Shown: positions 4,057 to 54,655 of the stretch, piece after piece
Numbering within the stretch: the first letter of the stretch is position 1
How the letters are laid out: each line of letters opens with the position of its first letter
Assembly: GCF_009914755.1 (NCBI RefSeq)
Contig: NC_060925.1
From: the human T2T-CHM13v2.0 reference genome, Homo sapiens
DNA: 64,000 bases
Direction: 5' to 3' (one strand)
The notes under the pieces: generated by a model
The model's database searches: none
Told to the model about the DNA's origin: nothing
Seen by the model: only the letters and a program-made list of their open reading frames with translations
Position numbers and translations under genes: made by a program

Positions 4057-5069
4057 TGCAACCTATCAGACCACAGCAGACTGATTCAGGACACAGCAGA
4101 AGCAGATCACAGAAATAGATGCTAGACAATTGATTTGGGCAAAAATCAGTGCAGATGTCCGGCATAGAAGTTTGTCTAGATCAGGCTTTGTAAAGGTAAA
4201 GACAGACAGTTGGCCATACAGGTTAGCCAAACAAGACACAGGTTGGAGAATACAGCTGACAGCAGTGTTGATGGAAGATAGGAGGGCAAGGTTCAAGGCA
4301 GGCAGAGATGTGAGAAATATTTGTCCACTGGGTCAGAGAATGCTTTATATAGAGAAATATCATCATCCAGAAAAGTTCCGTGAAAGAGAAATTATTCTCA
4401 GTTCTGAAGCCAGATTTAGACATTTTGCCTTTGTTCCTCAGGAGCCTGGACCACCCAGCCAACTGTGCCCTATTGATGAAAATCTCTGATTATTATAGGG
4501 GAATACATTATGTTGGCTTCTGTATTCCCTGAGAACCATCTACATCTCCTAGTACTTTGAAGTCGTGGTATCAGATGAAAGAGCCAAGCCTTCCAAACTG
4601 ACTTGGGGCTGTGCTGAGGTGTTCATGGCCTCAAGCATTCAAGCAGGTTGATCGGATATGAGGTGTGATATTCCTTTTCCTCAAGTCATTTATCCTCTGG
4701 AGATCCTAACCTAACCTAATCTCTCCTAACCTAAAAACAGGAGCAGACCCAGGGTCCTGACTGGGCATTCTCATTATGCTTCCTAAAACCATTAGGATTT
4801 CTTCGTGGTCACATCCAACAGCCTTTCTCTTTCTCAGGCCTGCAGCTCACTGCATGTGGTGCTGCCTCTCACATTCTCCTCTTTAATTAGAGGTCAGCCA
4901 CTCTAACTCCAGCCTTCATCACACTCTGCCTCTAGGGTCTTCTGAATGCTGTCTTTGAGGGTCTTCTCAGTCTCTTCCTTCCCCTTTATCTTTTATCAAA
5001 GGCACTCTTTTAATCTTTTGGTTCCTTTCTGTTGCCCCTCCATTCTCATCTGTTTATATGTTCGCTTTA

Positions 5070-11746: not shown

Positions 11747-13393
11747 TCATCTTTCAGTTCTCTTTTGCTCTAACGTTCTGTAATTGTATAAGGGAGGTTC
11801 CTTTTTCTTCCTTTTTTTTTTTGTTTGCAGTCAATATTTGGTAATACAAATAAAAGTTTACAGAGGTGGATGTCAAGTGGTAAGTGCACTGTGAAGCACA
11901 GGTCGGCCAAAAGTTTACATGAGCTATTTCCTGAAGAGTGGGCAATGACTCTGGTTCAATTATTCACACGGTAAAAGGATGCATTTTTCCTGTTGTGGGA
12001 GTACAGAATTGTCTCCTCAAGTGTTGACTCCTTTTAAAAGGAAATAAACAGAACTTGGACTAGTCTTCTTCTTATTATTATAAGGCTTTAAGTTTTCAAA
12101 TACATTTTGAAGACATTAGAAGCCTGAGAGACACCCAGCAGTTTTGTCCACCTTAAGTTAGTTCTCTATTTATTAATTCAGCATAGTACACAGAGCTCTA
12201 CCAGGTTCTCCATGTCCCTCTCATAACTGTTGCCTGTCTTTGACTTGGTAAAATATGCTGTGACATTTCTGCTTCATCAGCACATTACTGGCCTGATCAC
12301 CAGAATTTAAAATTCAGGATCTCCAGCAACAGAGCCAATTTCTATTGACCACCCGCTCAAAAAAGCACAGGTTTATTTTAGCCTCCATGCTATTTGATCT
12401 TTATCTTGATGATGCTATAGCCTTCAACCCTCTTGATAAAAATCTTTTTTTGCTGATATATTACTATCTTTTACCCAGAAGTTTGTTTTCTTAAAGAACA
12501 AGTTTTCTCAATGTACTTCACTACCATGAACTGTCTGCAATGATATTGAAATGGAAATATTTAAATTTAATTTGTTAGAGATTTTGTGTTCAACTTTTAA
12601 AATTTAATGAGGTATTAACCTTTTCCTAAGAAATAATATTTACTGTCTAGTATCAAGCTCAACGATATAAATCTAATTTTGTAATATAATATCTATATTT
12701 ATTCATAAAACCAAAGAAAATTCTCACTTTGACCACATTTTCTTAATAAGCTATGTCCCTGGGTTTCTTTTTACAGTAAAACATAGCTGCTAAATTTATG
12801 CCAGAGCATAACTTTCCAGAGTGGCTTGTAAACCAGCCACAGTAATTTCAAGATATTTTAACTGAGTTCAACCTCCTTTATAAAAAATGTTTAGAGGAGG
12901 AAAAGAGACTGTTATTATTATAATTTGGAGAACAGAAAGAGAAAGATAGTGGTGACACCACCCATCTCTTATTCTCTCACAGACATTGTCATGCTCCAGG
13001 TGGGGTGGGTGGTGATGCCAGTAATCCCCTGGGCTTTGACTTAGCTGAGCGTGGACTCAGTTTTCAGTTGCTTGGCTTGTTCTTGAAGAGTAAGCTGACA
13101 GGGTAGATTTGGTTCTCAGCGTATCATCTAAACAAACAAAACATGTAGGGTAGTAGTTCCACCTCCAGTGAGGGGCTCAGCCTTCTTACAGAGCACTTTT
13201 CTCTACTCTCAGCCTCCTGTGCTTGAGAAACAGCAGCAACTGGGCCTGGCTGGGCTAGCTCTCCGAGGCTGCTGTACAAAAAGCCTGTATTCTAATAGAC
13301 TCATTAACCCCAAAACCTATTCAGAGCACCTAACTTTCATTTGTTGAACTGCACATGAAATATATTTGGGGATATAAGGTTAATATTTCTTAG

Positions 13394-13711
<318 letters not shown>

Positions 13712-14619
13712 GCAAATTTTAAGCCAAAACCACTATCTGAGATTTACACAAAGCATAATTTTAGCTCCTCTTTTGTTTCATGAAGTCTAAATAATATTCT
13801 CTAGAAGAATTCCCAATATGCAGGCTGATATTTACTATTGCTTTCTTTATCTTCGAAGTGAGATGATGCCAAAACAATTGTTTTTGAATATCTTATGCAA
13901 GAAATAATAATGGAAAATAGAAATGTTGTCACTCCGGATAAGTTTTTTCCCCATCCCACAGAAGTTGGAAAAAATAGCATGAAAAGAGTCACTGAAAGGC
14001 TAGAATATCACAAATTAATAAATAATAAGTCTGAGTGCTTTCCCATTCACTTATTTTGCCTGTTTTTTGCCCCCCCAGAAGTACCAATTGTGAAAAGCTA
14101 ACCTCATATCAAGCCTGGGAGAAAGAAGAGGGAATTGTGTACTGACTTAAGAAAAGTGGCAGATAAAAATAAAACATGCATTTTGTTACACAGGAAGATT
14201 TTAACGTATATAAATAAATTTTATGATGTTTATTGAACATGAATTACATTGGCATACCTCGCTGCTTTTGCATACTGACAACTGGTACCTGGTAAAAACA
14301 AGTTCTTGAATGAATGGCCCTCCACCATTCATTCTCACAAAAGTAGCTCTCCTTCACTTACTTTGGTTCTCAAAAGGTTACTATCCAAACAACTACCTCT
14401 TGTGAAAAAAAGAGCGGAAGAAGATGAATTGTTTTTAAAACAAAGCTTGTCAGTTTTAGAAACAAACTTAACCAATTTCAGTGTGTAGTAGGTAATCATT
14501 CAACAAATAAGCGCCAAACATGTAAACAGGTCTAATTGTTGTTGTGATAAGCCATTTACTTGAAAGATGCATATGGAGATAACTAAGTCTGTAGTTAGCA
14601 TGAAGCATGTTAAGTAAGA

Positions 14620-19934: not shown

Positions 19935-20420
19935 GGCCTTCCTGGGAATATGTGATGAAACGTCCAGATCTACAATGCTATCTCTTTCAGAAATGAGAGA
20001 TGGGCTCCCAGGGCACTCCTATACTGGATATGTCAACACAGTGCCTGCCACACCCAACTTCCTCTTTGAGATGAAAGTGCCCCACCCACAGCCCCCTGCT
20101 TTGAGAAGCAGAGGTAGGTTGTTCTTTGCCCAGGGATGGCTCCTGATTGGACCAATGATTGGCCCTTGACATTAGGGGCTGCCTTCCCAAAAACCAGGGC
20201 TTGAATGGAAAAGGTAAGTTTGATCAATCAGATTCTCTCCTTCTGGGATTTGAATTGGGAAACATGGATAGAAAGAAGCAGTTAGCCATGGGAGCTGAAG
20301 CTGAAAGGATGGCATACAATGGAGTGGAGCCATGGAGGATTATAGCAAACCAAAACTATGAGGAAGCAGAACCATGTGATAAGAAGGCAGAATTTATGAA
20401 TAAGCAGCAATTCTGAGGTA
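19935..20420. mobile_element. Old MaLR/ERVL-type LTR relic
   Basis: tgattggaccaatg...caatcagattctctccttctgggatttgaattgg motif of old MLT1/LTR-class elements. Confidence 0.5.
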
Positions 20421-20964
20421 GAGAAAATACATGAAAAGTAAACAGAATTTTTTAGTTGGAATAAGACAGCAAGAAGCAAACCTGCAAAGAGTCGCAAGAA
20501 ATGAGAAGTGGTGCACAATTGTCATTAAGATCCTATCATCTGGCTCAACTAAGAGCCAGTTTCAGATCACCCGGATTTACTAAGGCTCCTGTGCTCTTCA
20601 TCAGATTTACCCCAGCTTTCCAGGTTTCCATGCTGGTATTTCTTGGGCTCCTACTATGAGCTAGGCACAGTTCTAGGTGTTTGGGATCTAAGGGCAAATG
20701 AAACAGGAAAATACTTAAACCCCTCATAACTTGCGGCAGGGTCTCTGTTTCAAAGGGCCAAGTTAAAATAACTACTCTTGCCTTCACCATTTCCCATGGT
20801 CCAGTTGGTGTCATTATGTTGTCATTATGAGTCTACACCCACTTTGGCATGCAGTTCATATATATCACCTCCACTGCTAGGGTGGGTAACTGGAGAATCA
20901 GGAAAAGAGAAAATAAAAAACAGAAGTTGGGAGATGGGACATGAAGGAAGTCAGATGATGTATG

Positions 20965-21215
20965 ATAATGGCAGCAGAGTGGCTGAATGCCCAGGCTTTA
21001 AATTAACTTGCATTCAAAATTTTGCTCTATCACTTATTCATTAAGCGGCTTTTTTGGCAGGTCAGTTTTCTCAGCTGTGAGCTAGAGATAAAATAGCATT
21101 CTCCTCATTGCATTTTTTGAGAATTAAGTGAGAAAATATATGCAGAGCATTTAGCATAGTACTTGGCCCATAGTAAATGCTTGATAAATGGTAACTATTT
21201 TTGCTGATGCTATTA
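20965..21215 (+). mobile_element. MIR SINE
   Basis: tcagttttctcagctgtga..., gcatttagcatagtacttggcccatagtaaatgcttgataaatg. Confidence 0.75.
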
Positions 21216-21413
21216 TTATCAGCAATCCTCTAGTTTTCCCATTAGTTGGATAGAATGAATGGGCTGGCGGGGAATTAGATGGCATCCTATGTCAAACCTC
21301 TCTGAAGGCTGATGCCAGCCATAACATAGTAGGCTCATTAAAGCTCCTTCTAGTTGGTGCATTCCTTCCCGGGTACTGTCTAGCTGCAGGAATATCAATA
21401 ATACCAAGAAGAG

Positions 21414-21729
21414 GGCCAGGCACGGTGGCTCACGCCTGTAATCCCAGCACTTTGGGAGGCCGAGGCGGGCGGATCATGAGGTCAGGAGATCGAGACCATC
21501 CTGGCTAACACAGTGAAACCCCGTCTCTACTAAAAATACAAAAAATTAGCCAGCCATGGTGGCGGGCGCCTGTAGTCCCAGCTACTCGGGAGGCTGAGGC
21601 AGGAGAATGGCGTGAACCCGGGAGGCGGAGCTTGCAGTGAGTCAAGAGATCGCGCCACTGCACTCCAGCCTGGGCCAAAGTGCGAGACTCCGTCTCAAAA
21701 AATAAAAAAATAAAAAACAATAATAATAA
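21414..21729 (+). mobile_element. AluY, full length
   Basis: gagatcgagaccatcctggctaac, gaatggcgtgaacccgggaggcggagcttgcag; TSD accaagaagag. Confidence 0.97.
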
Positions 21730-22123
21730 AACCAAGAAGAGGTGTAAAAAAAACACTAAGGACAAAAACCGTTGTATGCAAAAAAAACAGTTCTGGAGGG
21801 CAGGCAATAATAATTAGTGAAAGCAAAGTGTGTAGCAGTGATATTAGCCAGAGCAGTCAGTTGTGTGGGGGAGGCAAAAAAGCACATTTATTTCTTAAGC
21901 ACTACTTTTGTCACCTGTCTAGGGGTGGTGGGTATGTGGATGTAGACCTGATAGGCCCAAACTGAGGCATAGCTGAGGGCTGTGGTTGGAAAGCAGTGCT
22001 TTGAGAGACCATGAAAGTAGAAGCCCTCTTTTACCTATCAGGGTATAAATGACTGGAATGGGTGGAGGAGCAATGCAGGGAGGGAAGAGGGCAGAGTCAG
22101 GGAAGAGGTCAAGAGGGGCAGAC

Positions 22124-22238
22124 CTCCCAATGACTTGGGCGGCTGAGGTGGGAGGATAACCTGAGCCCATGAGTTTGAGTTCAGCCTGGGCAACATAGCA
22201 AGACCCTGTCTCTATAACAATCAATCAATCAATCAATC
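22124..22238 (+). mobile_element. FLAM / Alu monomer with (TCAA)n tail
   Basis: ggctgaggtgggaggat...cagcctgggcaacatagcaagaccctgtctct; flanking gggcagac repeated. Confidence 0.85.
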
Positions 22239-22959
22239 CAGGAAGCGGGCAGACAACAAATAGAAGTCCCAAAACTGGAGTTTCAGATGCGAGTGTGGAT
22301 CAGAAGGAGTCACCGCGGCTCTAGAGGAACCCTGAGGTATCTTTGCTTTGGGTCCAGGTGCTTTTGTGGTAGTGTACCAGACCATATCACCTCAGAGAGG
22401 GCCAGTGGCTGTGCTGAGGCTGCATTCTGGCCTTCCTAGCAGGGATGAGCACTGCCTTACTCCTATAAAGACCTTCGTGGCATTTAACATCAATCCATAT
22501 TGCCCCAAGAGGCCCTGTATCAGGATTAAGACCATGCATAAATGTCTAAAATACATCATTTGAGCAGAATGATTGTGAAATACTCAAGCCATAGTCTTCC
22601 AGAGTGAGTCTCTCTGTTACCTCTTGTACTCAGGCTTTCAGGATAGAGAATCTGGTCTGTGATTCTGAGTGCTGGGCACACAGCTGATGGAGCACCCAAG
22701 CACAGATAAGGTGAGCTGCCTTGCATAGCATGAGCTGAGCTTTCAGGCTATGGCAGACTGAAGTCCCTATCACACATTGGACCCTCTAGGGCTTGAAAAC
22801 ATGCTTGACCACAGGCCCTTCCCCTTTCCACGCAGGGATAATGAAGTGTGGCATAAAGCTTCTCCTGGGTCAGGGTGGCCCACTCCACAGTGTTGGCAGC
22901 ACCAGTCTCAACAGTGTGATGCTGAATGAAGCTAGGTTCCAGCTGTGTAGAGCTGGCAT

Positions 22960-23189
22960 GCAGGTGCAGAGGACACACTGTGGAGCTGAGTTGCTTGCAT
23001 TCATTTCTATTCTTAGTAAATTTTTTACCTGTATGGCTTTATAGGAGTTACTTTATCACTCCATGTTTCAGTTTCCTCATCCGCAAAACAGCAATAATAA
23101 TAGCATATAGCTCATAGGGTTATCATGAGTATTAAATTAGTTAATATAGGCAAGCCCTTTCAGCAGTGCCTGGCACATCGTCAGTGCTT
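22960..23189 (+). mobile_element. MIR SINE inserted into the Gypsy fossil
   Basis: tcagtttcctcatccgcaaaac...ctcatagggttatcatgagtattaaat...cagtgcctggcacatcgtcagtgct. Confidence 0.85.
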
Positions 23190-23913
23190 GCTTGTGCTGT
23201 ACTGGAGCAGAGGTGCAGCGAGTCTTGACTTGCCAAACATAGTGTCAACCTCAGCACATCAGGAAACTTCCTTCTCTATTTTAGGAGGTCATTACTAGGG
23301 CAGTTGCACAGAAAAAGACAAAATGGTGTTAGACATCTCTTGAAAATGTCTAGGTAACCTCAGTGACCAGGGTGTCTCTCACTCCAGAATCACAGATAAC
23401 TGGCTACACTGAACTTGGTTCAGAAATGTCACACATTTCTGTGCTGTTTTGAAGGTGCTGATGTTTCAGGTAACTCAGAACTGTTGGGGCCAGAGTATTG
23501 TATGAAGCATAGCTAGTCAGGTTGCATGTGGATGTTTCAGGATATATTAGGACATTTTCCAAGAAGAGCAAAAAGCATCCCCTTGAAAGTCCTGCAGGAT
23601 ACTGATCATGCTGCTGCCATAGGTCAAGAGGCATTGTGTTCTCTGCAAACTCTCTGTCATCCAAATGCAACGATGGAAGGCAGACAAGGTGCTAGGCACT
23701 CAGAAGATCTAATTTTATGGTCCTTCTGAGCTGGCCCAGGAGAGAGGGAACCAGACAGTATTAGGATCCCAGTAATCCTAGCAGAGGGCCCAGTCATCTG
23801 CTTTTCTTCCTCACAAAGTTCTCCACTGCCTTCTTGGGAGAGATAGGGCCCCAGTGGATTTCAAGGCCTATGAATTCCTACCGAGTCTCAAGTTATGGGT
23901 GTTGTGGTGGCCA

Positions 23914-24101
23914 CAGGGAGGCCAGATAAAATTCAGAACACCAATTAAATTTGAATTTCAAATAAATGATGAATAATGTCTTAATATATATCTATCCCAA
24001 ATATTGTGTGGCATATACTTATACCAAATATGTATTTGTTATCTGAAGTTCAAATTTAACTGGGTATCCTGTATTTTCATCTTCTAAGTCTGGTAACCCT
24101 C
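23914..24101 (+). mobile_element. MER53 palindromic hAT MITE
   Basis: cagggaggccagataaaattcag...ttaaatttgaatttca...tgaagttcaaatttaactggg...tctggtaaccct; internal inverted symmetry. Confidence 0.9.
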
Positions 24102-25519
24102 ACTGAGGGATATGGTCAGGGAAGGCTGATGGATGGGTGCAGCCTCCAACTAAACAAAAATAATAGAGATGCTACAGGTTTCTGGTGCCCTCACATCAGA
24201 GGGGACTCTTCTTGCAGGACTTTCGAGGAGATGCTTTTTGCTTTTCTTCATAATACTGGCTCATTCGGTTCAAATCTCTGAGAGTGAGGCAGGTCTGGAC
24301 ACTTACCCAACTCTGATGCTGTAGTTGCCTACTCTACAGATTTCAAGGACTCTTGCCAATCAATCAGGGCTATGAGAAAGTCCCAGTGGTGTCCACACAG
24401 TGTGGGCTTCCAGACTATAGCCAGGCCACTATCCAGAAGACATGAGAAGTCCCATTTACATAAGTATCCTCTTCCCCAAATATAAGCCTTCTATCTCCAT
24501 AAACTAGTGGAGCTGTGACAAAAAATAACATGGCAACTGGGAAGGCTCACCTGAAGACAGACAGCTTGCTCTGGCAACAGGCAGTGCAAGACTTGGCAAA
24601 TCTGACCAGCAACCTGTGATCTCAAAGGCAGCAGCCCTGTTGTCAGACATTTGCTACATCTACAGAACAGATACAGCAACCACCAGCTGAGACCACAACT
24701 CATTTCCCGTATGGAGGCTGAGTTTCAGAGAATCAGCTGGAGATACAGCCCTGTGGATTGAGGGTCAGTGCCCAACCTCACTGACTGTAGGTGGGAGTGG
24801 GTAGTAACCAAAAATAAGGATGTGGTGTAACGCTGGGTTTCCTAAGCTGAGAGAACAGTCCAGAACCTCAGAGAAGTGTACATAGGTAGAGACTGAAAGC
24901 CAGGTCACTAAGACCCAGAAACAAAGATCTATCCAGACAGGTAAAAAATTCAAGGCATTCTTGAGAAACAAAGTTCAGAGAGTGAACCAGCAACAGGTTG
25001 ATGTTTCCAAAGTCAGTGTGTGACTAGCCACCTGTGTTTTTTTATTATTATTCCTGAGTTGTGGGTGGGGAATAGGCTGGTTACAGATGCTTCCCTGAGA
25101 TTAGGGATGCTGTCAGGGGGCAGACCTAACTCTCAACACCAAGGAACATTTCCAAGGTCTGCTCTTCAGCTACTCTGTTATCCCTGACTTTGTTAGACCC
25201 TCCCTTTCGTTGTCACTCTCTGCACACTTGGCTTCTGAGACTGTGCTCTTCAAGTCTCCCTCTAGCTGCTCCTTCTCTGTCTTCTCCAAGGTCTCTTTTT
25301 CTTCCTGCTCCTTAAGTGTTCATATTCCTTAGGGTCCTGCCCTTAGCCCACTGCTCTTCTCTTTTCTTTCTATCTTTGGTTTCTGGATGTTCTCATTTGC
25401 CGTCATGGTTCCAACTGAGACTGTACCTGGCTAAAATGTCAGTTACACAGATTAAACACTTGCATCTTTTTTGCAACTTCCTAGCTGTGAGACCTAGGCT
25501 AAATTATATCAACTTTTAG

Positions 25520-25825
<306 letters not shown>

Positions 25826-25875
25826 CTAAGCTTCCCTCTTTTAAACTCATCAGCCAAATGAGTATAAATAACATC

Positions 25876-25878
<3 letters not shown>

Positions 25879-25924
<46 letters not shown>
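25879..25924. repeat. (TA)n microsatellite, about 23 units
   Basis: Uninterrupted tatata run. Confidence 0.98.
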
Positions 25925-25926
<2 letters not shown>

Positions 25927-26500
25927 CAGCTTATATGGTTACATGAACATTAAATAATACAACATACGCAAATTGTATGAAAATTCTTAGCATAGTGCCT
26001 GACACATAGCAAATAGTCAATAAATGCAACCCTAATAGTGATTATTATTATTTACATGGTCTTGCATCTCAGAGCTTTGTTTCCAGCTTAGTACTCTCTC
26101 AGGAGCCACACTCGTATATCCAGCTGTCCACTGCATATTTCTACACGGATGTTCCAAAGACACCTTATATTCATTGCATCAAAAATGAAACTTGTTTTGT
26201 CTCCTTCTAAACCTCTTTTTCTTCTCTCTTCTCTACCTCACTTGTTGACACTATCATTTATCAGTCACCCAAGCTGGAATCTTAGAAATTATTTTTCATT
26301 TCTGTCTTTTCCTTGGCATTGCCACCCAACTCTGCTCCTTATCAAATTAACCATTAGAATCTGATAATTTTACTTCTTCAACTTTTTCATTTTACATTCT
26401 CTCCCCATTTCTTGATAAAAACATCTTTAGAAAGCAATGATTCAAGGCTGAGTCCCTGGCTTTTTAGAAGTTTGTGACTTTGGTGGCAAAAACAGACTCT

Positions 26501-28200: not shown

Positions 28201-28715
28201 AGGGTATGGAAAACAGAGAATAGATGTTTCTTGTTATTCTTAAACCTTACAACAACCGTTCAAGTTAGGCAGCATTATCTGCATTTTATACATGTGGAAG
28301 CAAATATTCAGGGAAATCAAGTCCCAAATACACAACTGCTAAATCACTTGGTTAACAAGAAGAGGAATCAGATTCAAACTCCAAAACTGCCATGTTTCTC
28401 ACTACACGGCAGGCTTGGGTGGAAAACAGGTTAAACCTGGGAGAAAGAGTCCTCTTTTAGGGATAAAAATTGGGATTGTTCAGCTGGTGTGGTGTGTTTG
28501 CATGGGGTAGCACAAAGCCCCCGTGAACATGACTTTTACCACTATCTGTGTGAATTTGGCAAGCGTCTCGAACATCCTGGGGCTGTTTACTCATCTGCAA
28601 AATGGACACAAAAACACCTGCTCTGCGATCTTCACGGGTGGTGGTCAGAGTCATGTGAAAAGATGCAGGCAGTAGAGCGCTGTGAAACTCTAAAGTGCTC
28701 AGCAAATGTGAGGTA

Positions 28716-29008
28716 GGCTGGGTGCCCTGGTTCACGCCTTTAATCCCAGCACTTTGGGAAGCCGAGGCGGGCGAATCACTTGAGGTCAGGAGTTCCAGAT
28801 CAGCCAGGCCAACATGGTAAAACCCAATTTCCACTAAAAATACAAAAATTAGCCGGGCGTGGGGGTGCGTGCCTGTAATCCCTACTCGGGAGGCTGAGTC
28901 AGGAGAATTGCTTGAACCTGGGAGACGGAGGTTGCAGTGAGCAGAGTTCGCACCACTGCACTCCAGCCTGGGCGACAGAGAGAAACTCCATCTAAAAAAA
29001 AAAAAAAA
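28716..29008 (+). mobile_element. AluS
   Basis: Dimeric Alu with poly(A), inserted at the end of a MIR relic (28530-28715). Confidence 0.95.
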
Positions 29009-29269
29009 GGTAAGGTGGAAATATAAGCCTGGGCTCTCGGGTAGTCATGTCTAAGACCTTTCAATCCCTTAGTCATGTCTTGCTTCTCCCGCAAAAGCAA
29101 GTTTTTCTGTGGCCCCATGTCGCCATCCTGGCCTCAGGGGCAGCTGACCTTGCTGGGGAGGCACCATGTGCAAGTGGGCGGGGATGGGGGCTTCTCCCCT
29201 GGTTCCAGGGTGGGCAGACTGGGAGGTGACCCCAACATGGATGTGGCAGCTGCTGCTTATCTGTAGTTA

Positions 29270-29530
29270 GTCAACGGCCCAGACAGATGAGGTGTCCGTG
29301 GTGACCTTCCTGCCTCAGTGAGTGTGGGAACTCGGGGCTTCCCAGGGCGAAGGAGTGGGAACATAAACAAAATGGGCCCTGCCGGAGCTCGGGCATCGCA
29401 TCCTCCCTCAGCCCTGCCTGAACCTCGGAGGAGGCGCCCAGGAGATCATCCAGGCACCGCTGCCTAGGGCCGCGCAGGGAAGACGGCCAGGGCTCCAGGG
29501 TCCGCCTCAGTCACTGTCACCCCGCAACAT
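29270..29530. promoter_or_regulatory. GC-rich, CpG-retaining non-repeat patch (candidate enhancer/promoter)
   Basis: About 15 CpGs counted by eye in about 260 bp outside any Alu; forkhead-type ACATAAACAA at 29361 and again at 29752. Confidence 0.5.
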
Positions 29531-31581
29531 GATTCTGACTCCCCCAAAGGTGGGTGCTTCCTGCCAAAAGTCCCACCACCGGCACCCTTTGTTGTCAGAG
29601 GGCAGAGTCAGAAATATGTCATCCTGGTGGAAACTCTCCCTCCCTCCCTCTCCCCTCAGCAGATTTAGCCCTGGATTCCATGGACTGCTGCAGGGGTTAG
29701 TCTTCTGGAGAGAGCAGGGCCCCTGCATCTCTTTCTGACAAAAGACGGCAGACATAAACAAGGGGAAGTTTGAAAGAAAGAGAAACGGCTAATTCTCAGC
29801 AACCTTTCATATGTCTGCGGAAGGCTTGGCATCCATGGCCCAGCCTTCTTCAGGATGAGCACCTATGTCTGCTACTCTTTGCATCAAGTGACTTCTCCAT
29901 GCCTTTCTTGTGTCTTTTTTCTCGCTCCTTTCTGTTGCCTCCTTTATGTTTTCTCACTGCCTAGCTCTTCCCAATAGCACCACCCCGAGTGGTTCTAGGG
30001 CAAAATAGTAAAGCATTTTAAATTTGTTTTCATGACTTCCCACCCTTTTTTCAGTCTCGTTCCTTTCCATCTTTAAGGTGGCCAGCAGCTGCTCCGCACT
30101 TGACAAACGTGCTGGACACTGCTGCTGGGGAGACATCAGCCGGCAAGCAAGGGAAAGTTGCAGACTTCTCAGTGCTTACCTCCTAGCTGGGAAGACAAAT
30201 ATTGGACAACTATTCTCTAAAGGAGGCATGCAGAGTGCTGTGAGTGCCTGTCAGTAGGTGCAGACAGGGGCTCAGGGAGAGCATCCTGGAAGAAGAGATG
30301 TTTGGGTTGAGCCTGGAAGCGTGAATGTTGGGTGAAGTGTTGGGAAGAGAGGTGAAGACAGAGAATAAGACAGGGGAGAAGGAACACATTCTATGTGAAG
30401 GTGCTGAGGGAAGATAGAACATTTGAGGAACCAAAAATGAATTGTACAGCTGCCTGTGGTACATAGCCTGGGCCTCACCCTCTCCCCTGAGCACTTGACA
30501 ATGCACATAAGGTCCCTAAACACTTCTGCCTACTCACCCACCATAAAACCTGTCATGTTTGCTCTCCCTTTAAGGCTCTGTTTTTTTGCCTTCCATAATT
30601 GCGATCTCAACTGATAGTTTCCTAAGACAGATTTGGGGTCTGGAAACAGATTCTTAGCTGAATTCTACTACTTCACTGTGCAAACTTGAGGAAGTGAGGT
30701 ATATCATCAGTAATATGGGCTAATAACTGTGCTAGTAGTAACATTTCATGATTGTTTACACTGCATCAGCTTCCAGTGCTAAGCACTTTTGTCTTTTATT
30801 GTATGATTCTCACAAATCCTCATAAGGTAGGTAATGCTTTTATCCCTTTCTCCCTTCTCAAAGGATTCTTAGGAAGCCTAGGTGTGACACTAATTATAGA
30901 TGCACTTTGTAACCATTAAGGGTTAATGCAAAAAATGAAATATTATTGTGATGTTCAATAATAGTACCATGATGTTCAACAAGTACATATTTAATGAATA
31001 ACTGCATTTGTTGAATGCCATGACAGTTGTGGGCTATAATTAAATGAGTCTCAAAATATTTTGTGTCTGTCTCCTGAACAAACCAAATAAAAAGCAATAG
31101 AAGGAATGAAAAACGTTGTCATCACCAATTTGCTAATTGTATGCCATGCCGGACCACAGAAGAGAGAATTCCACAGATGTGACCCTGAGCCTCCAAAGTT
31201 TACAGTCTGATGACCACCACTACCTGGAATGCAGATACAGATAACAGAGTGAAAGCTCAGTATCAGTTGATACAACACTGGGTTGTATCAAGCTCATTTC
31301 CTACCAAGGGTAAGGATCTTTCAGGAGACCGAATGAGCAGGAAAAAATTCATGAACTTCTTTTAAAATTCAAGGTGGGGGCTGAAGCCAGAAGGTTCTAA
31401 GTCTCTTAGTATTCTCCTTAGTACATGTCTCTTCACTTTCTATCACCTTATCACAGCGTTTTTTTCACCCAACCCCAATTCTGGGGAATTATTTATACAT
31501 GATATATGCACTGTCATAATAATGACATATTCTTAAATTGTCAATTTCTGAAACCACGTATGTGTATCACAAACTAATATG

Positions 31582-52552: not shown

Positions 52553-53128
52553 TATTCACTCATTCAGTAAATTATTTATTAAGCAGCTACTCTGTGCCAG
52601 GAATAGTCAAGACACTGAGGATATAGTAGTGAGCAAAATACATAAATCCTTGCTCTCATAGAGCATGGGTTACAGGGGGAGGAATAGACAACAGCCCAGA
52701 AAAATAAGTCAGGTAAAATGATAAGCGTTGGAAGAATAAAGCAAGGAAGAACAGGATATGCTAGAGGCTGAGGGATGGGAGGAAGATAGCAAGTTTAAAT
52801 ACGATTGTCAGGAAAAGAAAGTATCATTGGTTACATTTGAACAAAGATCTGAAGGCAGTGAAGGAACAAACTAATGCATATCTGGGAGAAGAGACTCTGA
52901 GGCAGAGGGAAGAGTCAAAAGTCACTGGGGCAGGAGGAGGCCTGTTATATTCAAGAAACAGTTAGGAGGCCTATATGTTCAGAATGGAGTTACAGGAAGA
53001 AAAATATCAGATGAAGTCACAGATGGAGGCCAGATGAGGTAGGGCCCAGGACTAATCAAAGACATTGGCTTTTATACTAAATGAGAAGGAGCCATGGAAA
53101 CTTTTGAGTAGTGGATGACACATTTAGG
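52553..53128 (-). mobile_element. L2 3' fragment (continues at 54670-54860 beyond the L1)
   Basis: attcactcattcagtaaattatttattaagcagctactctgtgccagg. Confidence 0.8.
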
Positions 53129-54655
53129 TTTTCTTTTTTAAATTTTAAATACATTTTTATTTCAATAACTTTAAGGGTATAAGTGGTGTTTGGTTACATG
53201 GATGAACTGTATAGTGGTGAAGTCTGATATTTTAGTACCCCTGTCACCCTAGTAGTATACATTGTACCCAATATGCAGTTTTTTATCCCTCACCTTCCTC
53301 CCAACCTTCCCCTGTCTGAATCTCAAATGTCCATTATACCACTTTGTAAGCCTTTGTGTACCCATAACTTAACTCCCACTTATAAGTGAGAACATATGGC
53401 ATTTGGTTTTCCATTCCTGAGTTATTTCACTTAAAATAATGGCCTCCAGCTCCATCCAAGTTGTGCAAGACATTATTTCATTCTTTTTTGTGGCTGAGTA
53501 GTATTCCATGGCATGTATATACCACATTTTCTTTATCCACTAATTGGTTGATGGGCTCTTAGGTTAGTTCTATACCTTTGCCATTGTCAATTGTGCTGCG
53601 ATAAACATACATGTGCAGATATAATGATTTATTTTCCTTTTTGATATAATGACTTATTTTCCTTTGGGTAGATACCCAACAGTGGGATTGCTACTTTTAG
53701 TTCTTTGAGAAATCGTCATACTGTTTTCCATAGATGTTATATTAATTTACATTCCCACTAGCAGTGTATAAGTGTTCCCTTTTCACCACATCTGTGACAA
53801 CATCTATTGCTTTTTGGATTTTTAACAATGGCCATTCTGGTTGGGGTAAAGTGGTATCTCATTGTGGCTTTGATTTGCATTTCCCTGATGTTCAGTGATG
53901 TTGAAATTTTTTCCATGTTTATTGGCCATTTGTGTATCTTCTTTTGAGAAGCATCTATTCATGTAAATTGCCCACTTTTTAATGGAATTATTTGTTTTTT
54001 TTTTCCTGCTGATTTGTTTGAGCTCCTTGTAGATCCTGGATATTAGTCCTTTCTTAGATGGATACTTGCAAATATCTTCTCCCATTCTGTGGGTTTTCTC
54101 TTTACTCTGATGATTATATATTTTGCCGCACAAAAGCCTTTCAGTTTAATCAGGTTCCGTTTATTTGTTTAAATTTTTGTTGCATTTGCTTTTGGGGTCT
54201 TAGTCATAATTTTTTGCCTAGGCCAAAGTCCAGAAGAATTTTTCCTATGTTTTCTTCTAGAATTGTTATGGTTTCAAGTCTTATATTTAAGTCTTTATTC
54301 CATCTTAGGGTGATTTTTGTATGTGGTGAGAGAGATGGATCCAGTTTCATTCTTCTATCCAGTGGCTCTCCAGTTTTCACAGAACCATTTACTAAATAGG
54401 GTGTCCTTTTCCCAATTTATGTTTTTGTATGCTTTGTTGAAGATCAGTTGGTTCTAAGTATCTAGCTTTACTTCCAGGTTCTCTAGTCTGTTCCACTGGT
54501 CTATGCATCTACTTTTATATCAGTACCATGCTGTTTCGATTACTATAACCTTGTAGTATAATTTGAAGTTGGGTAATGTGATGCCTCCAGATTTGTTCTT
54601 TTTGCTTAGGATTGCTTTGGCTATTTAGGCCCTTTTATGATTCCATATGAATTTT
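53129..54655 (-). mobile_element. L1PB-like 3' fragment
   Basis: ORF2 peptide [14 protein letters not shown]...NSIKKWA; 3' UTR tggttacatggatgaa..tatagtggtgaagtctga; TSD acatttaggtttt/acatttaagtttt. Confidence 0.93.

What the first reader, a model, noticed from the sequence alone, without database searches (positions are those of the whole stretch)
22320..24720. Fossil sushi-like Ty3/Gypsy retrotransposon with gag-RT-RNase H(-integrase) in canonical order
Seen: what looks like unique DNA translates on the minus strand into more than 10 collinear motifs, each resembling Gypsy Pol or Gag as I recall them. FVRKK..LC*DYWDPNTV ~ FVKKKDG.LRLCIDYRGLN; LLGQLRRTIKLDLLSA*HLV ~ LLDQLRGA..FTKLDLRSAYHL; MPLDL ~ MPFGL; FLENVLIY ~ YLDDILIY; VLSYLKHQHL..EMC ~ VLQRLREHNL..EKC; ILE*ETPWSLR ~ ILDWPTPKSLK; TSAPV; VETGAANTVEWATLTQ ~ VETDASD..VGAVLSQ; NHRPDSLS*KPEY ~ N.KADALSRKPEY. 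Established: Gypsy elements are extinct in mammals and survive as rare fossils (MamGyp families) and as domesticated SIRH/RTL/Mart genes (PEG10, RTL1). Inference: this is a rare multi-domain relic of the lineage related to those genes, and it may be partly unmasked by standard repeat libraries.
Basis: partly seen in the sequence, partly recalled or inferred. Interest (0 to 1): 0.88.

Follow-up and report, generated by a model that had tools for sequence, protein, structure and literature searches.

The report
Dead Gypsy-type reverse transcriptase fossil
A 1.25 kb stretch between NOTCH2 and SEC22B is the decayed reverse transcriptase and RNase H of an ancient Gypsy-type jumping gene, a real but functionless relic of a kind already catalogued in the human genome.

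Summary
Standard tools see nothing: Pfam, PDB, tblastn and custom HMMER profiles all give no significant hit.

A frameshift-aware alignment that models neutral codon decay finds a clear signal. Window 23877->22626 (minus strand) aligns end to end with the RT-RNase H of natural Gypsy polyproteins.
- Both domains, 141-sequence chromovirus profile: score 156.1 against 64.2+-8.8 for shuffles, 0 of 100 reach it.
- RT alone: 0 of 150, z 12.8. RNase H alone: 0 of 150, z 3.9.
- It is the top of 194 window tiles under three scoring schemes.

A profile of 8 human ERV pol ORFs does not fit (23 of 40 shuffles reach it). All 14 size-matched Gypsy profiles fit better.

Gag, protease and integrase are not detectable. 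The aligned path has 9 stops and 9 frameshifts. An old SINE splits it and a palindromic MITE abuts it.

Verdict: a genuine, dead RT-RNase H relic of a Gypsy element, not a four-domain one. Human repeat libraries already list such relics (PMC5753468). I could not check whether this locus is already annotated.

The parts
23194..23877 (-). Decayed reverse transcriptase (fingers, palm, thumb and connection) of a Gypsy-type pol. The YxDD box reads FLEN.
   Evidence: Codon-decay profile alignment, chromovirus profile columns 2-268 of 273: score 120.5 against shuffles 38.7+-6.4, 0 of 150 reach it, z 12.8. Insect profile: 0 of 150, z 6.3. Small chromovirus profile: 0 of 150, z 6.2.
23033..23192 (-). 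Old SINE insertion (MIR by recall) between the RT and RNase H parts.
   Evidence: Of 40 scored genomic matches to 22955-23195, 37 lie elsewhere in the genome at 71-86% identity and cover query 4-163. The alignments skip 23008-23163 or 22978-23175.
22626..23010 (-). Decayed RNase H of the same pol, ending in RPDSLS*K (the ADALSR-type motif).
   Evidence: Chromovirus profile columns 5-128 of 134: score 58.8 against 35.1+-6.1, 0 of 150, z 3.9. Insect profile: 0 of 150, z 3.1. Small chromovirus profile: 14 of 150, z 1.3. The start of the domain is ambiguous.
23915..24100 (.). Not part of the retroelement.
   Evidence: 68 of 77 genomic matches of the whole region fall in query 612-809, on both strands, at 70-80% identity. 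Internal inverted repeat 23941-23965 / 24039-24063.
24102..24720 (-). No detectable gag or protease.
   Evidence: Protease, linker and gag profiles from two Gypsy clades: z -0.9 to 2.5, and 1 to 50 of 60 shuffles reach the score. Pfam finds 0 families.
22320..22625 (-). Nothing detectable.
   Evidence: Integrase profiles over 20000-22650: z -0.7, 2.5, 0.8 and 0.4. At amino-acid level, 63 of 100 shuffles reach the score.

Best explanation
Window 22626-23877 (minus strand) is the neutrally decayed RT-RNase H segment of the pol gene of an ancient Ty3/Gypsy-type LTR retrotransposon.

Inferred history: the element integrated in a distant ancestor and lost its ends (gag, protease, integrase and LTRs are gone or beyond recognition). 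A SINE later split it and a MITE inserted beside it. It has since accumulated stops, frameshifts and deletions.

It does nothing today. It was copied passively with the human chr1 segmental duplications and so exists three times at 99% identity.

Shown: the homology, the domain order, the Gypsy rather than ERV affinity, and the breaks. Inferred: the history and the age.
For: (1) Codon-decay, frameshift-aware profile alignment of 22600-23900(-):
- Insect Gypsy profile (117 sequences): score 126.6 against 61.3+-8.9, 0 of 200 shuffles reach it. Reversed profile 60.8, plus strand 64.7.
- Chromovirus profile (141 sequences): 156.1 against 64.2+-8.8, 0 of 100.
- Both alignments run end to end (profile columns 2-400 of 411 and 2-401 of 407).

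(2) Robustness: 11 of 12 combinations of profile, decay and penalty have 0 of 60 shuffles reaching the score.

(3) Unbiased scan: it is the top of 194 window tiles with the amino-acid PSSM and with both codon profiles. The runners-up are an Alu, an L1-like stretch and a composition artefact, with z 2.9-3.8.

(4) Gypsy rather than ERV.

(5) It is dead: 359 aligned codons carry 9 stops and 9 frameshifts, with 10 deleted blocks of profile columns. YxDD reads FLEN.

(6) Positive control: a known-type Gypsy RNase H relic on chr15 (94.4 bits to PF17917) scores 226.5 with the same amino-acid machinery.

(7) Three genomic copies at 99% identity.
Against: - Calibrated standard tools find nothing. Pfam gives 0 families for 3 frames and 4 pieces. 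PDB gives 0. tblastn with an ant Gypsy pol gives E = 2.9 at best in the region. My own Gypsy HMMs run with --max give no RT hit at E <= 50.
- Pairwise amino-acid alignments are at shuffle level.
- The decisive statistic comes from a scoring scheme I wrote, and its null is dinucleotide shuffles plus only 64 kb of real DNA.
- With long targets and cheap jumps the amino-acid version chained junk up to 69.8.
- No gag, protease, integrase or LTR was found.
- No other copy of a family was found in the genome.
- The RNase H part is only moderately supported, and one of three profiles fails (14 of 150).
Confidence: 0.88

Rival explanations
1. The region is a decayed pol fragment of an endogenous retrovirus (ERV1, ERVK or ERVL), the common kind of LTR relic in mammals, not a Gypsy element.
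For: - ERVs vastly outnumber Gypsy relics. All 52 scored genomic matches to a Gypsy pol query were at 25-31% identity, apart from RTL1.
- One ERV ORF (L046) reached z 2.2 as a single comparator.
Against: - The 8-ORF ERV profile gives z -0.4, and 23 of 40 shuffles reach it. All 14 size-matched Gypsy profiles score higher, and 9 of the 14 have 0 of 40.
- Single comparators: ERV median z -0.4, against 1.2 for insect Gypsy and 0.2 for chromovirus. Mann-Whitney P = 0.001.
- Only 8 ERV ORFs, of unknown class, were sampled.
Confidence: 0.05
2. The resemblance is chance. Unique DNA read in three frames with gaps happens to mimic short RT motifs.
For: - No calibrated tool reports a hit.
- Amino-acid pairwise alignments are at shuffle level.
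- Gapped chaining can inflate scores in real DNA.
Against: - 0 of 200, 0 of 100 and 0 of 150 shuffles reach the score, with z 7-13, under independent profiles from two Gypsy clades.
- The reversed profile and the opposite strand stay at null level.
- It is the top of 194 real-DNA tiles under three schemes.
- The alignment is end to end and skips exactly the independently verified SINE.
Confidence: 0.03
3. The region is a relic of another RT-bearing lineage with similar motifs (BEL/Pao, DIRS, a caulimovirus-like element), or a pseudogene of a domesticated Gypsy gene such as RTL1.
For: - None of these lineages was profiled here.
- The RT motifs used are shared across LTR retroelements.
Against: - RTL1's RT-RNase H part gives no signal (41-53 of 100 shuffles reach it).
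- Repbase reports no BEL or Copia traces in human, and DIRS only as two domesticated genes (PMC5753468, passage read).
- The end-to-end fit to Gypsy RT plus adjacent RNase H is what a Gypsy pol predicts.
Confidence: 0.04

Closest known systems
MamGyp-int and the other Gypsy-class entries of the human repeat library (MamGypLTR1-3, LTR85, LTR88, LTR104_Mam, X1_LR to X4_LR)
   Same: [quoted passage not shown] The PNMA2 coding exon is described as derived from the Gag part of a MamGyp-int element (bioRxiv 10.1101/2023.02.09.527862, passage read).
   Different: I could not compare with those consensus sequences. No other genomic copy resembling this locus was found by DNA or translated search, apart from the two segmental-duplication copies. 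Family membership is therefore open.
Sushi-ichi-like elements and their domesticated RTL/SIRH genes (human RTL1, read here from chr14)
   Same: Gypsy lineage present in mammalian ancestors. The chromovirus-type comparators nearest to RTL1 (P0242 at 34% and P0243 at 32% identity to RTL1) are among the best single matches to the fossil (z 5.0 and 6.2).
   Different: RTL1 is an intact 1358-aa frame under selection. This locus has 9 stops and 9 frameshifts. RTL1 itself shows no detectable similarity to it. RTL1 was tested only with the amino-acid pairwise alignment, not with the codon-decay model.
Chromoviruses (Gypsy clade with a chromodomain integrase; named relatives of P0242 are mostly fungal, with one catfish, one amoebozoan (Planoprotostelium) and one plant)
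   Same: This is the best-fitting profile for RT-RNase H (156.1, z 10.4). 78 of 359 aligned codons are identical to P0242.
   Different: No integrase or chromodomain can be found here, so the clade's defining feature cannot be checked. The insect Gypsy profile also fits (z 7.3).
Human ERV pol relics
   Same: LTR-retroelement RT followed by an RNase H-like domain. These dominate the genome's matches to PF17917.
   Different: An ERV profile does not fit this locus.

Membership tests
Ty3/Gypsy LTR retrotransposon | RT domain with the Gypsy-type block order (VxKKDG, CxDYRxLN, LDLxSGYxQ, MPFGL, YLDDILIYS, thumb WPxP) | tested here: met
   End-to-end profile alignment. 0 of 150 shuffles reach the score, z 12.8, and z 6.2-6.3 with two other profiles. 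Motif places are listed.
Ty3/Gypsy LTR retrotransposon | RNase H directly downstream of RT | tested here: met
   Collinear continuation to the ADALSR-type motif at 22658-22635. Alone: 0 of 150 (z 3.9), 0 of 150 (z 3.1) and 14 of 150 (z 1.3). Support is moderate and the domain start is ambiguous.
Ty3/Gypsy LTR retrotransposon | Integrase downstream of RNase H (the order that separates Gypsy from Copia) | tested here: inconclusive
   Two integrase profiles (60 and 129 sequences) over 20000-22650: z -0.7 to 2.5. Either deleted or decayed beyond recognition.
Ty3/Gypsy LTR retrotransposon | gag and aspartic protease upstream | tested here: inconclusive
   Profiles of 8-29 sequences over 23880-26300: z -0.9 to 2.5. 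The profiles are small and gag is poorly conserved.
Ty3/Gypsy LTR retrotransposon | Flanking long terminal repeats | tested here: not met
   0 direct-repeat families in 22000-25200. A wider search was not made, and LTRs this old would be past detection. This tells against a complete element, not against the origin of the pol fragment.
Ty3/Gypsy LTR retrotransposon | Closer to Gypsy than to retroviral RT | tested here: met
   (see rivals).
Sushi-like / chromovirus clade | Better fit to that clade than to other Gypsy clades | tested here: inconclusive
   156.1 (141 sequences) against 126.6 (117 insect sequences) at equal settings. The small 23-sequence chromovirus profile was no better than the insect one. 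No tree was built.
Sushi-like / chromovirus clade | Detectable similarity to RTL1, the human gene derived from that lineage | tested here: not met
   41 of 100 and 53 of 100 shuffles reach the score. Amino-acid pairwise test only.
MamGyp-int (Repbase/Dfam family) | DNA similarity to the family consensus | not testable with these tools
   No Dfam or Repbase sequences on hand. Only the name list was read in PMC5753468.
MamGyp-int (Repbase/Dfam family) | Other copies in the same genome | tested here: inconclusive
   DNA searches of 23190-23913 and 24102-24760 found 3 of 3 candidates, all the locus and its two duplicates. The translated search gave nothing better than E = 0.57 elsewhere. Copies this old would not find each other.
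Endogenous retrovirus | RT fits an ERV pol profile | tested here: not met
   z -0.4; 23 of 40 shuffles reach the score.

The most novel reading that the evidence does not exclude
The fossil is a pol remnant of a chromovirus- or sushi-type Gypsy lineage that the current mammalian repeat libraries do not hold. It would then be a direct relic of the lineage that gave rise to the RTL/SIRH genes, preserved only here and in its two duplicates, and invisible to standard homology tools.
Probability: 0.1. Interest if true: 0.5.

Novelty: new member of a known kind. Interest (0 to 1): 0.27.

Why it matters
As biology it is ordinary. It is one more dead fragment of a transposon superfamily already listed among human repeats, with no sign of function.

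Two points have some value.
- It shows how far such relics lie below the reach of Pfam, HMMER and BLAST, and that a codon-decay, frameshift-aware profile can still recover an end-to-end RT-RNase H.
- If it proves absent from Dfam and closer to the sushi/chromovirus clade than to MamGyp-int, it would add a pol sequence to the sparse record of Gypsy elements in mammalian ancestors.

Tried and rejected
Searches that found nothing:
- Pfam on three full frames and four pieces: 0 families at E <= 10.
- PDB phmmer: 0.
- tblastn of an ant Gypsy pol (P0004) against the window: 96 HSPs at E <= 100. The best in the region is E = 2.9 (22936-22808). The best overall is E = 0.05 at 4765-4610.
- hmmbuild profiles of RT, RNase H, integrase, protease and gag against 852 six-frame pieces with --max: no RT hit in the region at E <= 50, RNase H only at E 5-10.

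Alignments at shuffle level or only weakly above it:
- Amino-acid pairwise frameshift alignment to P0004: 11, 21 and 5 of 100 shuffles reach it. To RTL1: 53 and 41 of 100.
- The amino-acid PSSM was only suggestive: 0 of 150, and 1 of 150 with stricter penalties. For RT alone, z 4.0. For the 23-sequence chromovirus profile, 1-2 of 150.
- The amino-acid PSSM also chained junk to 69.8 on a 3.2 kb unrelated locus. I therefore moved to a codon-decay model with tile controls.

Genome-wide searches:
- PF17917 and P0004 against the whole genome were swamped by ERVs, and the window was not among the scored candidates.
- Other copies were sought by DNA and by translation and not found.

Things I could not do:
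- A larger real-DNA null could not be fetched, so the window's own 194 tiles served instead.
- Earlier findings of the scan were not open.
- One tile run timed out and was repeated in halves.
- Gag, protease and integrase were sought with profiles from two clades and rejected.
- No structure or complex prediction was tried, because the frame is too broken.
Full report
WHAT IS THERE

The window is human chr1:120,094,001-120,158,000 (T2T), in the gap between NOTCH2 and SEC22B. The strings are scattered over three frames, each with 41-48 stops in 900 codons.

STANDARD TOOLS SEE NOTHING

- Pfam hmmscan of the three frames with X at stops, and of four sub-pieces, gave 0 families at E <= 10.
- phmmer against PDB sequences gave 0.
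- tblastn with a natural ant Gypsy pol (P0004, found) gave E = 2.9 in the region, at the RNase H-like stretch.
- HMMs I built from natural Gypsy pols were run with --max over 852 six-frame pieces of the window. They gave no RT hit in the region at E <= 50, and only E 5-10 for RNase H.
- Frameshift-aware pairwise alignments at amino-acid level were at shuffle level. For P0004, 5-21 of 100 shuffles reached the score. For human RTL1, 41-53 of 100 did.

On this evidence alone the finding would have to be called unproven.

PROFILES START TO SEE IT

I built a position-specific matrix from 117 natural Gypsy RT-RNase H segments and ran it in a frameshift-aware local alignment. It scored 64.6 against 35.4+-4.6 for 150 dinucleotide shuffles, and 0 of 150 reached it. 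With stricter penalties, 1 of 150 did. The region was the top of 194 tiles covering the whole window on both strands.

The scheme has a weakness. On 3.2 kb of unrelated DNA the same scheme chained Alu and poly-K junk to 69.8. So this was suggestive, not decisive.

A chr15 Gypsy RNase H relic served as positive control. It scores 94.4 bits to PF17917 and 226.5 with my alignment.

THE DECISIVE TEST

I replaced amino-acid scores with a codon model. Each profile column gives a distribution of ancestral codons. These decay under neutral substitution (transitions favoured, CpG faster). The observed triplet is then scored against the window's triplet background. In this way a TGA at a tryptophan column, or a TGG at an arginine column, counts for the alignment rather than against it.

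Results with settings fixed beforehand (t = 0.35, gap and frameshift penalty 9):

| Profile | Score | Shuffles | Reach the score |
|---|---|---|---|
| Insect Gypsy, 117 sequences | 126.6 | 61.3+-8.9 (max 93.5) | 0 of 200 |
| Chromovirus-type Gypsy, 141 sequences | 156.1 | 64.2+-8.8 (max 91.4) | 0 of 100 |

- For the insect profile, the reversed profile scored 60.8 and the plus strand 64.7.
- The chromovirus profile was built from the relatives of P0242.
- Both alignments run end to end: profile columns 2-400 of 411 and 2-401 of 407, window 23877 down to about 22625.
- Each alignment makes a long jump over the SINE (skipping 22978-23175, and 23008-23163). The chromovirus alignment has a second, 17-nt jump at 22895-22911.
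- Of 12 combinations of profile, decay time and penalty, 11 had 0 of 60 shuffles reaching the score. The twelfth had 7 of 60.

Taken apart with the chromovirus profile:
- RT 23877-23194: 120.5 against 38.7+-6.4, 0 of 150 reach it.
- RNase H 23010-22626: 58.8 against 35.1+-6.1, 0 of 150 reach it.

With the other two profiles, RT gave 0 of 150 twice. RNase H gave 0 of 150 and 14 of 150.

REAL-DNA CONTROL

I could not fetch more human DNA for a null, so the control is the window itself.
- The candidate tile is first of 194 with both codon profiles: 113.7 against a next best of 95.5, and 147.3 against 96.6.
- The raw runner-up, 28601-29901, scores equally on both strands, which looks like a composition effect.
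- Rescored against their own shuffles, the best other tiles are 13001-14301 (z 2.9, an Alu by recall) and 52651-53951 (z 3.8, L1 ORF2-like by recall).
- That is about what 194 tries should give by chance. The candidate lies far outside it.

WHAT KIND OF RT

A profile of 8 unaltered human ERV pol ORFs gives z -0.4, and 23 of 40 shuffles reach it. Fourteen random 8-sequence Gypsy profiles give z 1.0-5.1. All 14 are higher, and 9 have 0 of 40.

As single comparators, the median z is 1.2 for 30 insect Gypsy pols, 0.2 for 23 chromovirus pols and -0.4 for 8 ERV ORFs. Mann-Whitney P is 0.001 for Gypsy against ERV.

The two chromovirus comparators nearest to RTL1 (P0242, P0243) are among the four best singles, and the large chromovirus profile beats the insect one. 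No tree was built, and RTL1 itself shows nothing.

WHAT IS NOT THERE

Integrase was sought downstream (20000-22650). Protease and gag were sought upstream (23880-26300). Profiles from both clades were used, at amino-acid and codon level. Every result lies between z -0.9 and 2.5.

No direct repeats that could be LTRs lie in 22000-25200.

So the relic is RT plus RNase H only, about 1.25 kb including the SINE. It is not a gag-to-integrase element.

STATE OF THE RELIC

- 359 aligned codons with 9 stops and 9 frameshifts.
- 10 deleted blocks of profile columns.
- The YxDD box reads FLEN.
- The DAS motif of RNase H reads NAS in the best placement.
- 78 of 359 codons encode the same residue as P0242.
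- On the fixed path, the match score peaks at a decay of about 0.20-0.25 substitutions per site. This is a rough figure, because the path was chosen at t = 0.35.

INSERTIONS AND AGE

- The SINE inside it has 37 scored relatives elsewhere in the genome at 71-86% identity. I recall it as MIR.
- The palindromic MITE at 23915-24100 has 68 scored matches on both strands.
- From the decay estimate, and from the relic predating an old SINE insertion, I infer an age on the order of 100 million years or more. This is not shown.

COPIES

The whole stretch occurs three times on chr1 at 99% identity: here, at 145.38 Mb and at 146.07 Mb. These are recent segmental duplicates and give no independent evidence.

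No other related copy was found by DNA or translated search. Copies this decayed would not be expected to find each other.

KNOWN OR NEW

Gypsy relics in the human genome are established. The Repbase review lists MamGyp-int with its LTRs, the LTR85, LTR88 and LTR104_Mam families, MamGypLTR3, and the internal fragments X1_LR to X4_LR. [quoted passage not shown]

A preprint describes the PNMA2 coding exon as the Gag-derived part of a MamGyp-int element (10.1101/2023.02.09.527862, passage read).

I could not run Dfam or RepeatMasker. Whether this locus is already annotated, and to which family it belongs, stays open. The supplements of these papers were not consulted.

VERDICT

The four-domain anatomy is not supported. 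The feature is a functionless member of a known kind.

Noticed in passing
window 23561-23599 and 24210-24248: A 39-nt inverted repeat, 90% complementary, with no extension on either side. One arm lies inside the RT relic, just upstream of the FLEN box. The other lies beyond the MITE. It is far too long to be chance in 3.2 kb. The origin is unexplained; a small templated or fold-back repair copy is one possibility.
   Followed up: partly
window 4495-4765, minus strand: A stretch reading PSQDPGSAPVF..RLG*DLQRINDL resembles the start of an LTR-element RT. tblastn gave E = 0.05, and it was the second-best tile with the amino-acid PSSM. The codon-decay model gives only z 0.7 (18 of 100 shuffles reach it).
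   Followed up: partly
L011 (chr15:69,118,551-69,118,841, minus strand): A much better preserved Gypsy RNase H relic. It scores 94.4 bits to PF17917 with 5 stops and was the best match in the genome search. A second match lies 58 kb away at chr15:69,176,254-69,176,451 (41.7 bits, no stops).
   Followed up: partly
chr1:145,380,955-145,383,351 and chr1:146,071,398-146,073,794 (L003, L002): The whole region, relic included, is present in two further copies at 99% identity. They lie in the 1q21 segmental duplications.
   Followed up: no
window 52651-53951, minus strand: The translation [35 protein letters not shown] looks like the end of L1 ORF2 (by recall). It aligned weakly to the RNase H part of the Gypsy profile (z 3.8; 1 of 100 shuffles reach it).
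   Followed up: partly
window 28601-29901, both strands: High raw scores on both strands with both codon profiles (94-97). This looks like a composition or simple-repeat effect rather than homology.
   Followed up: no
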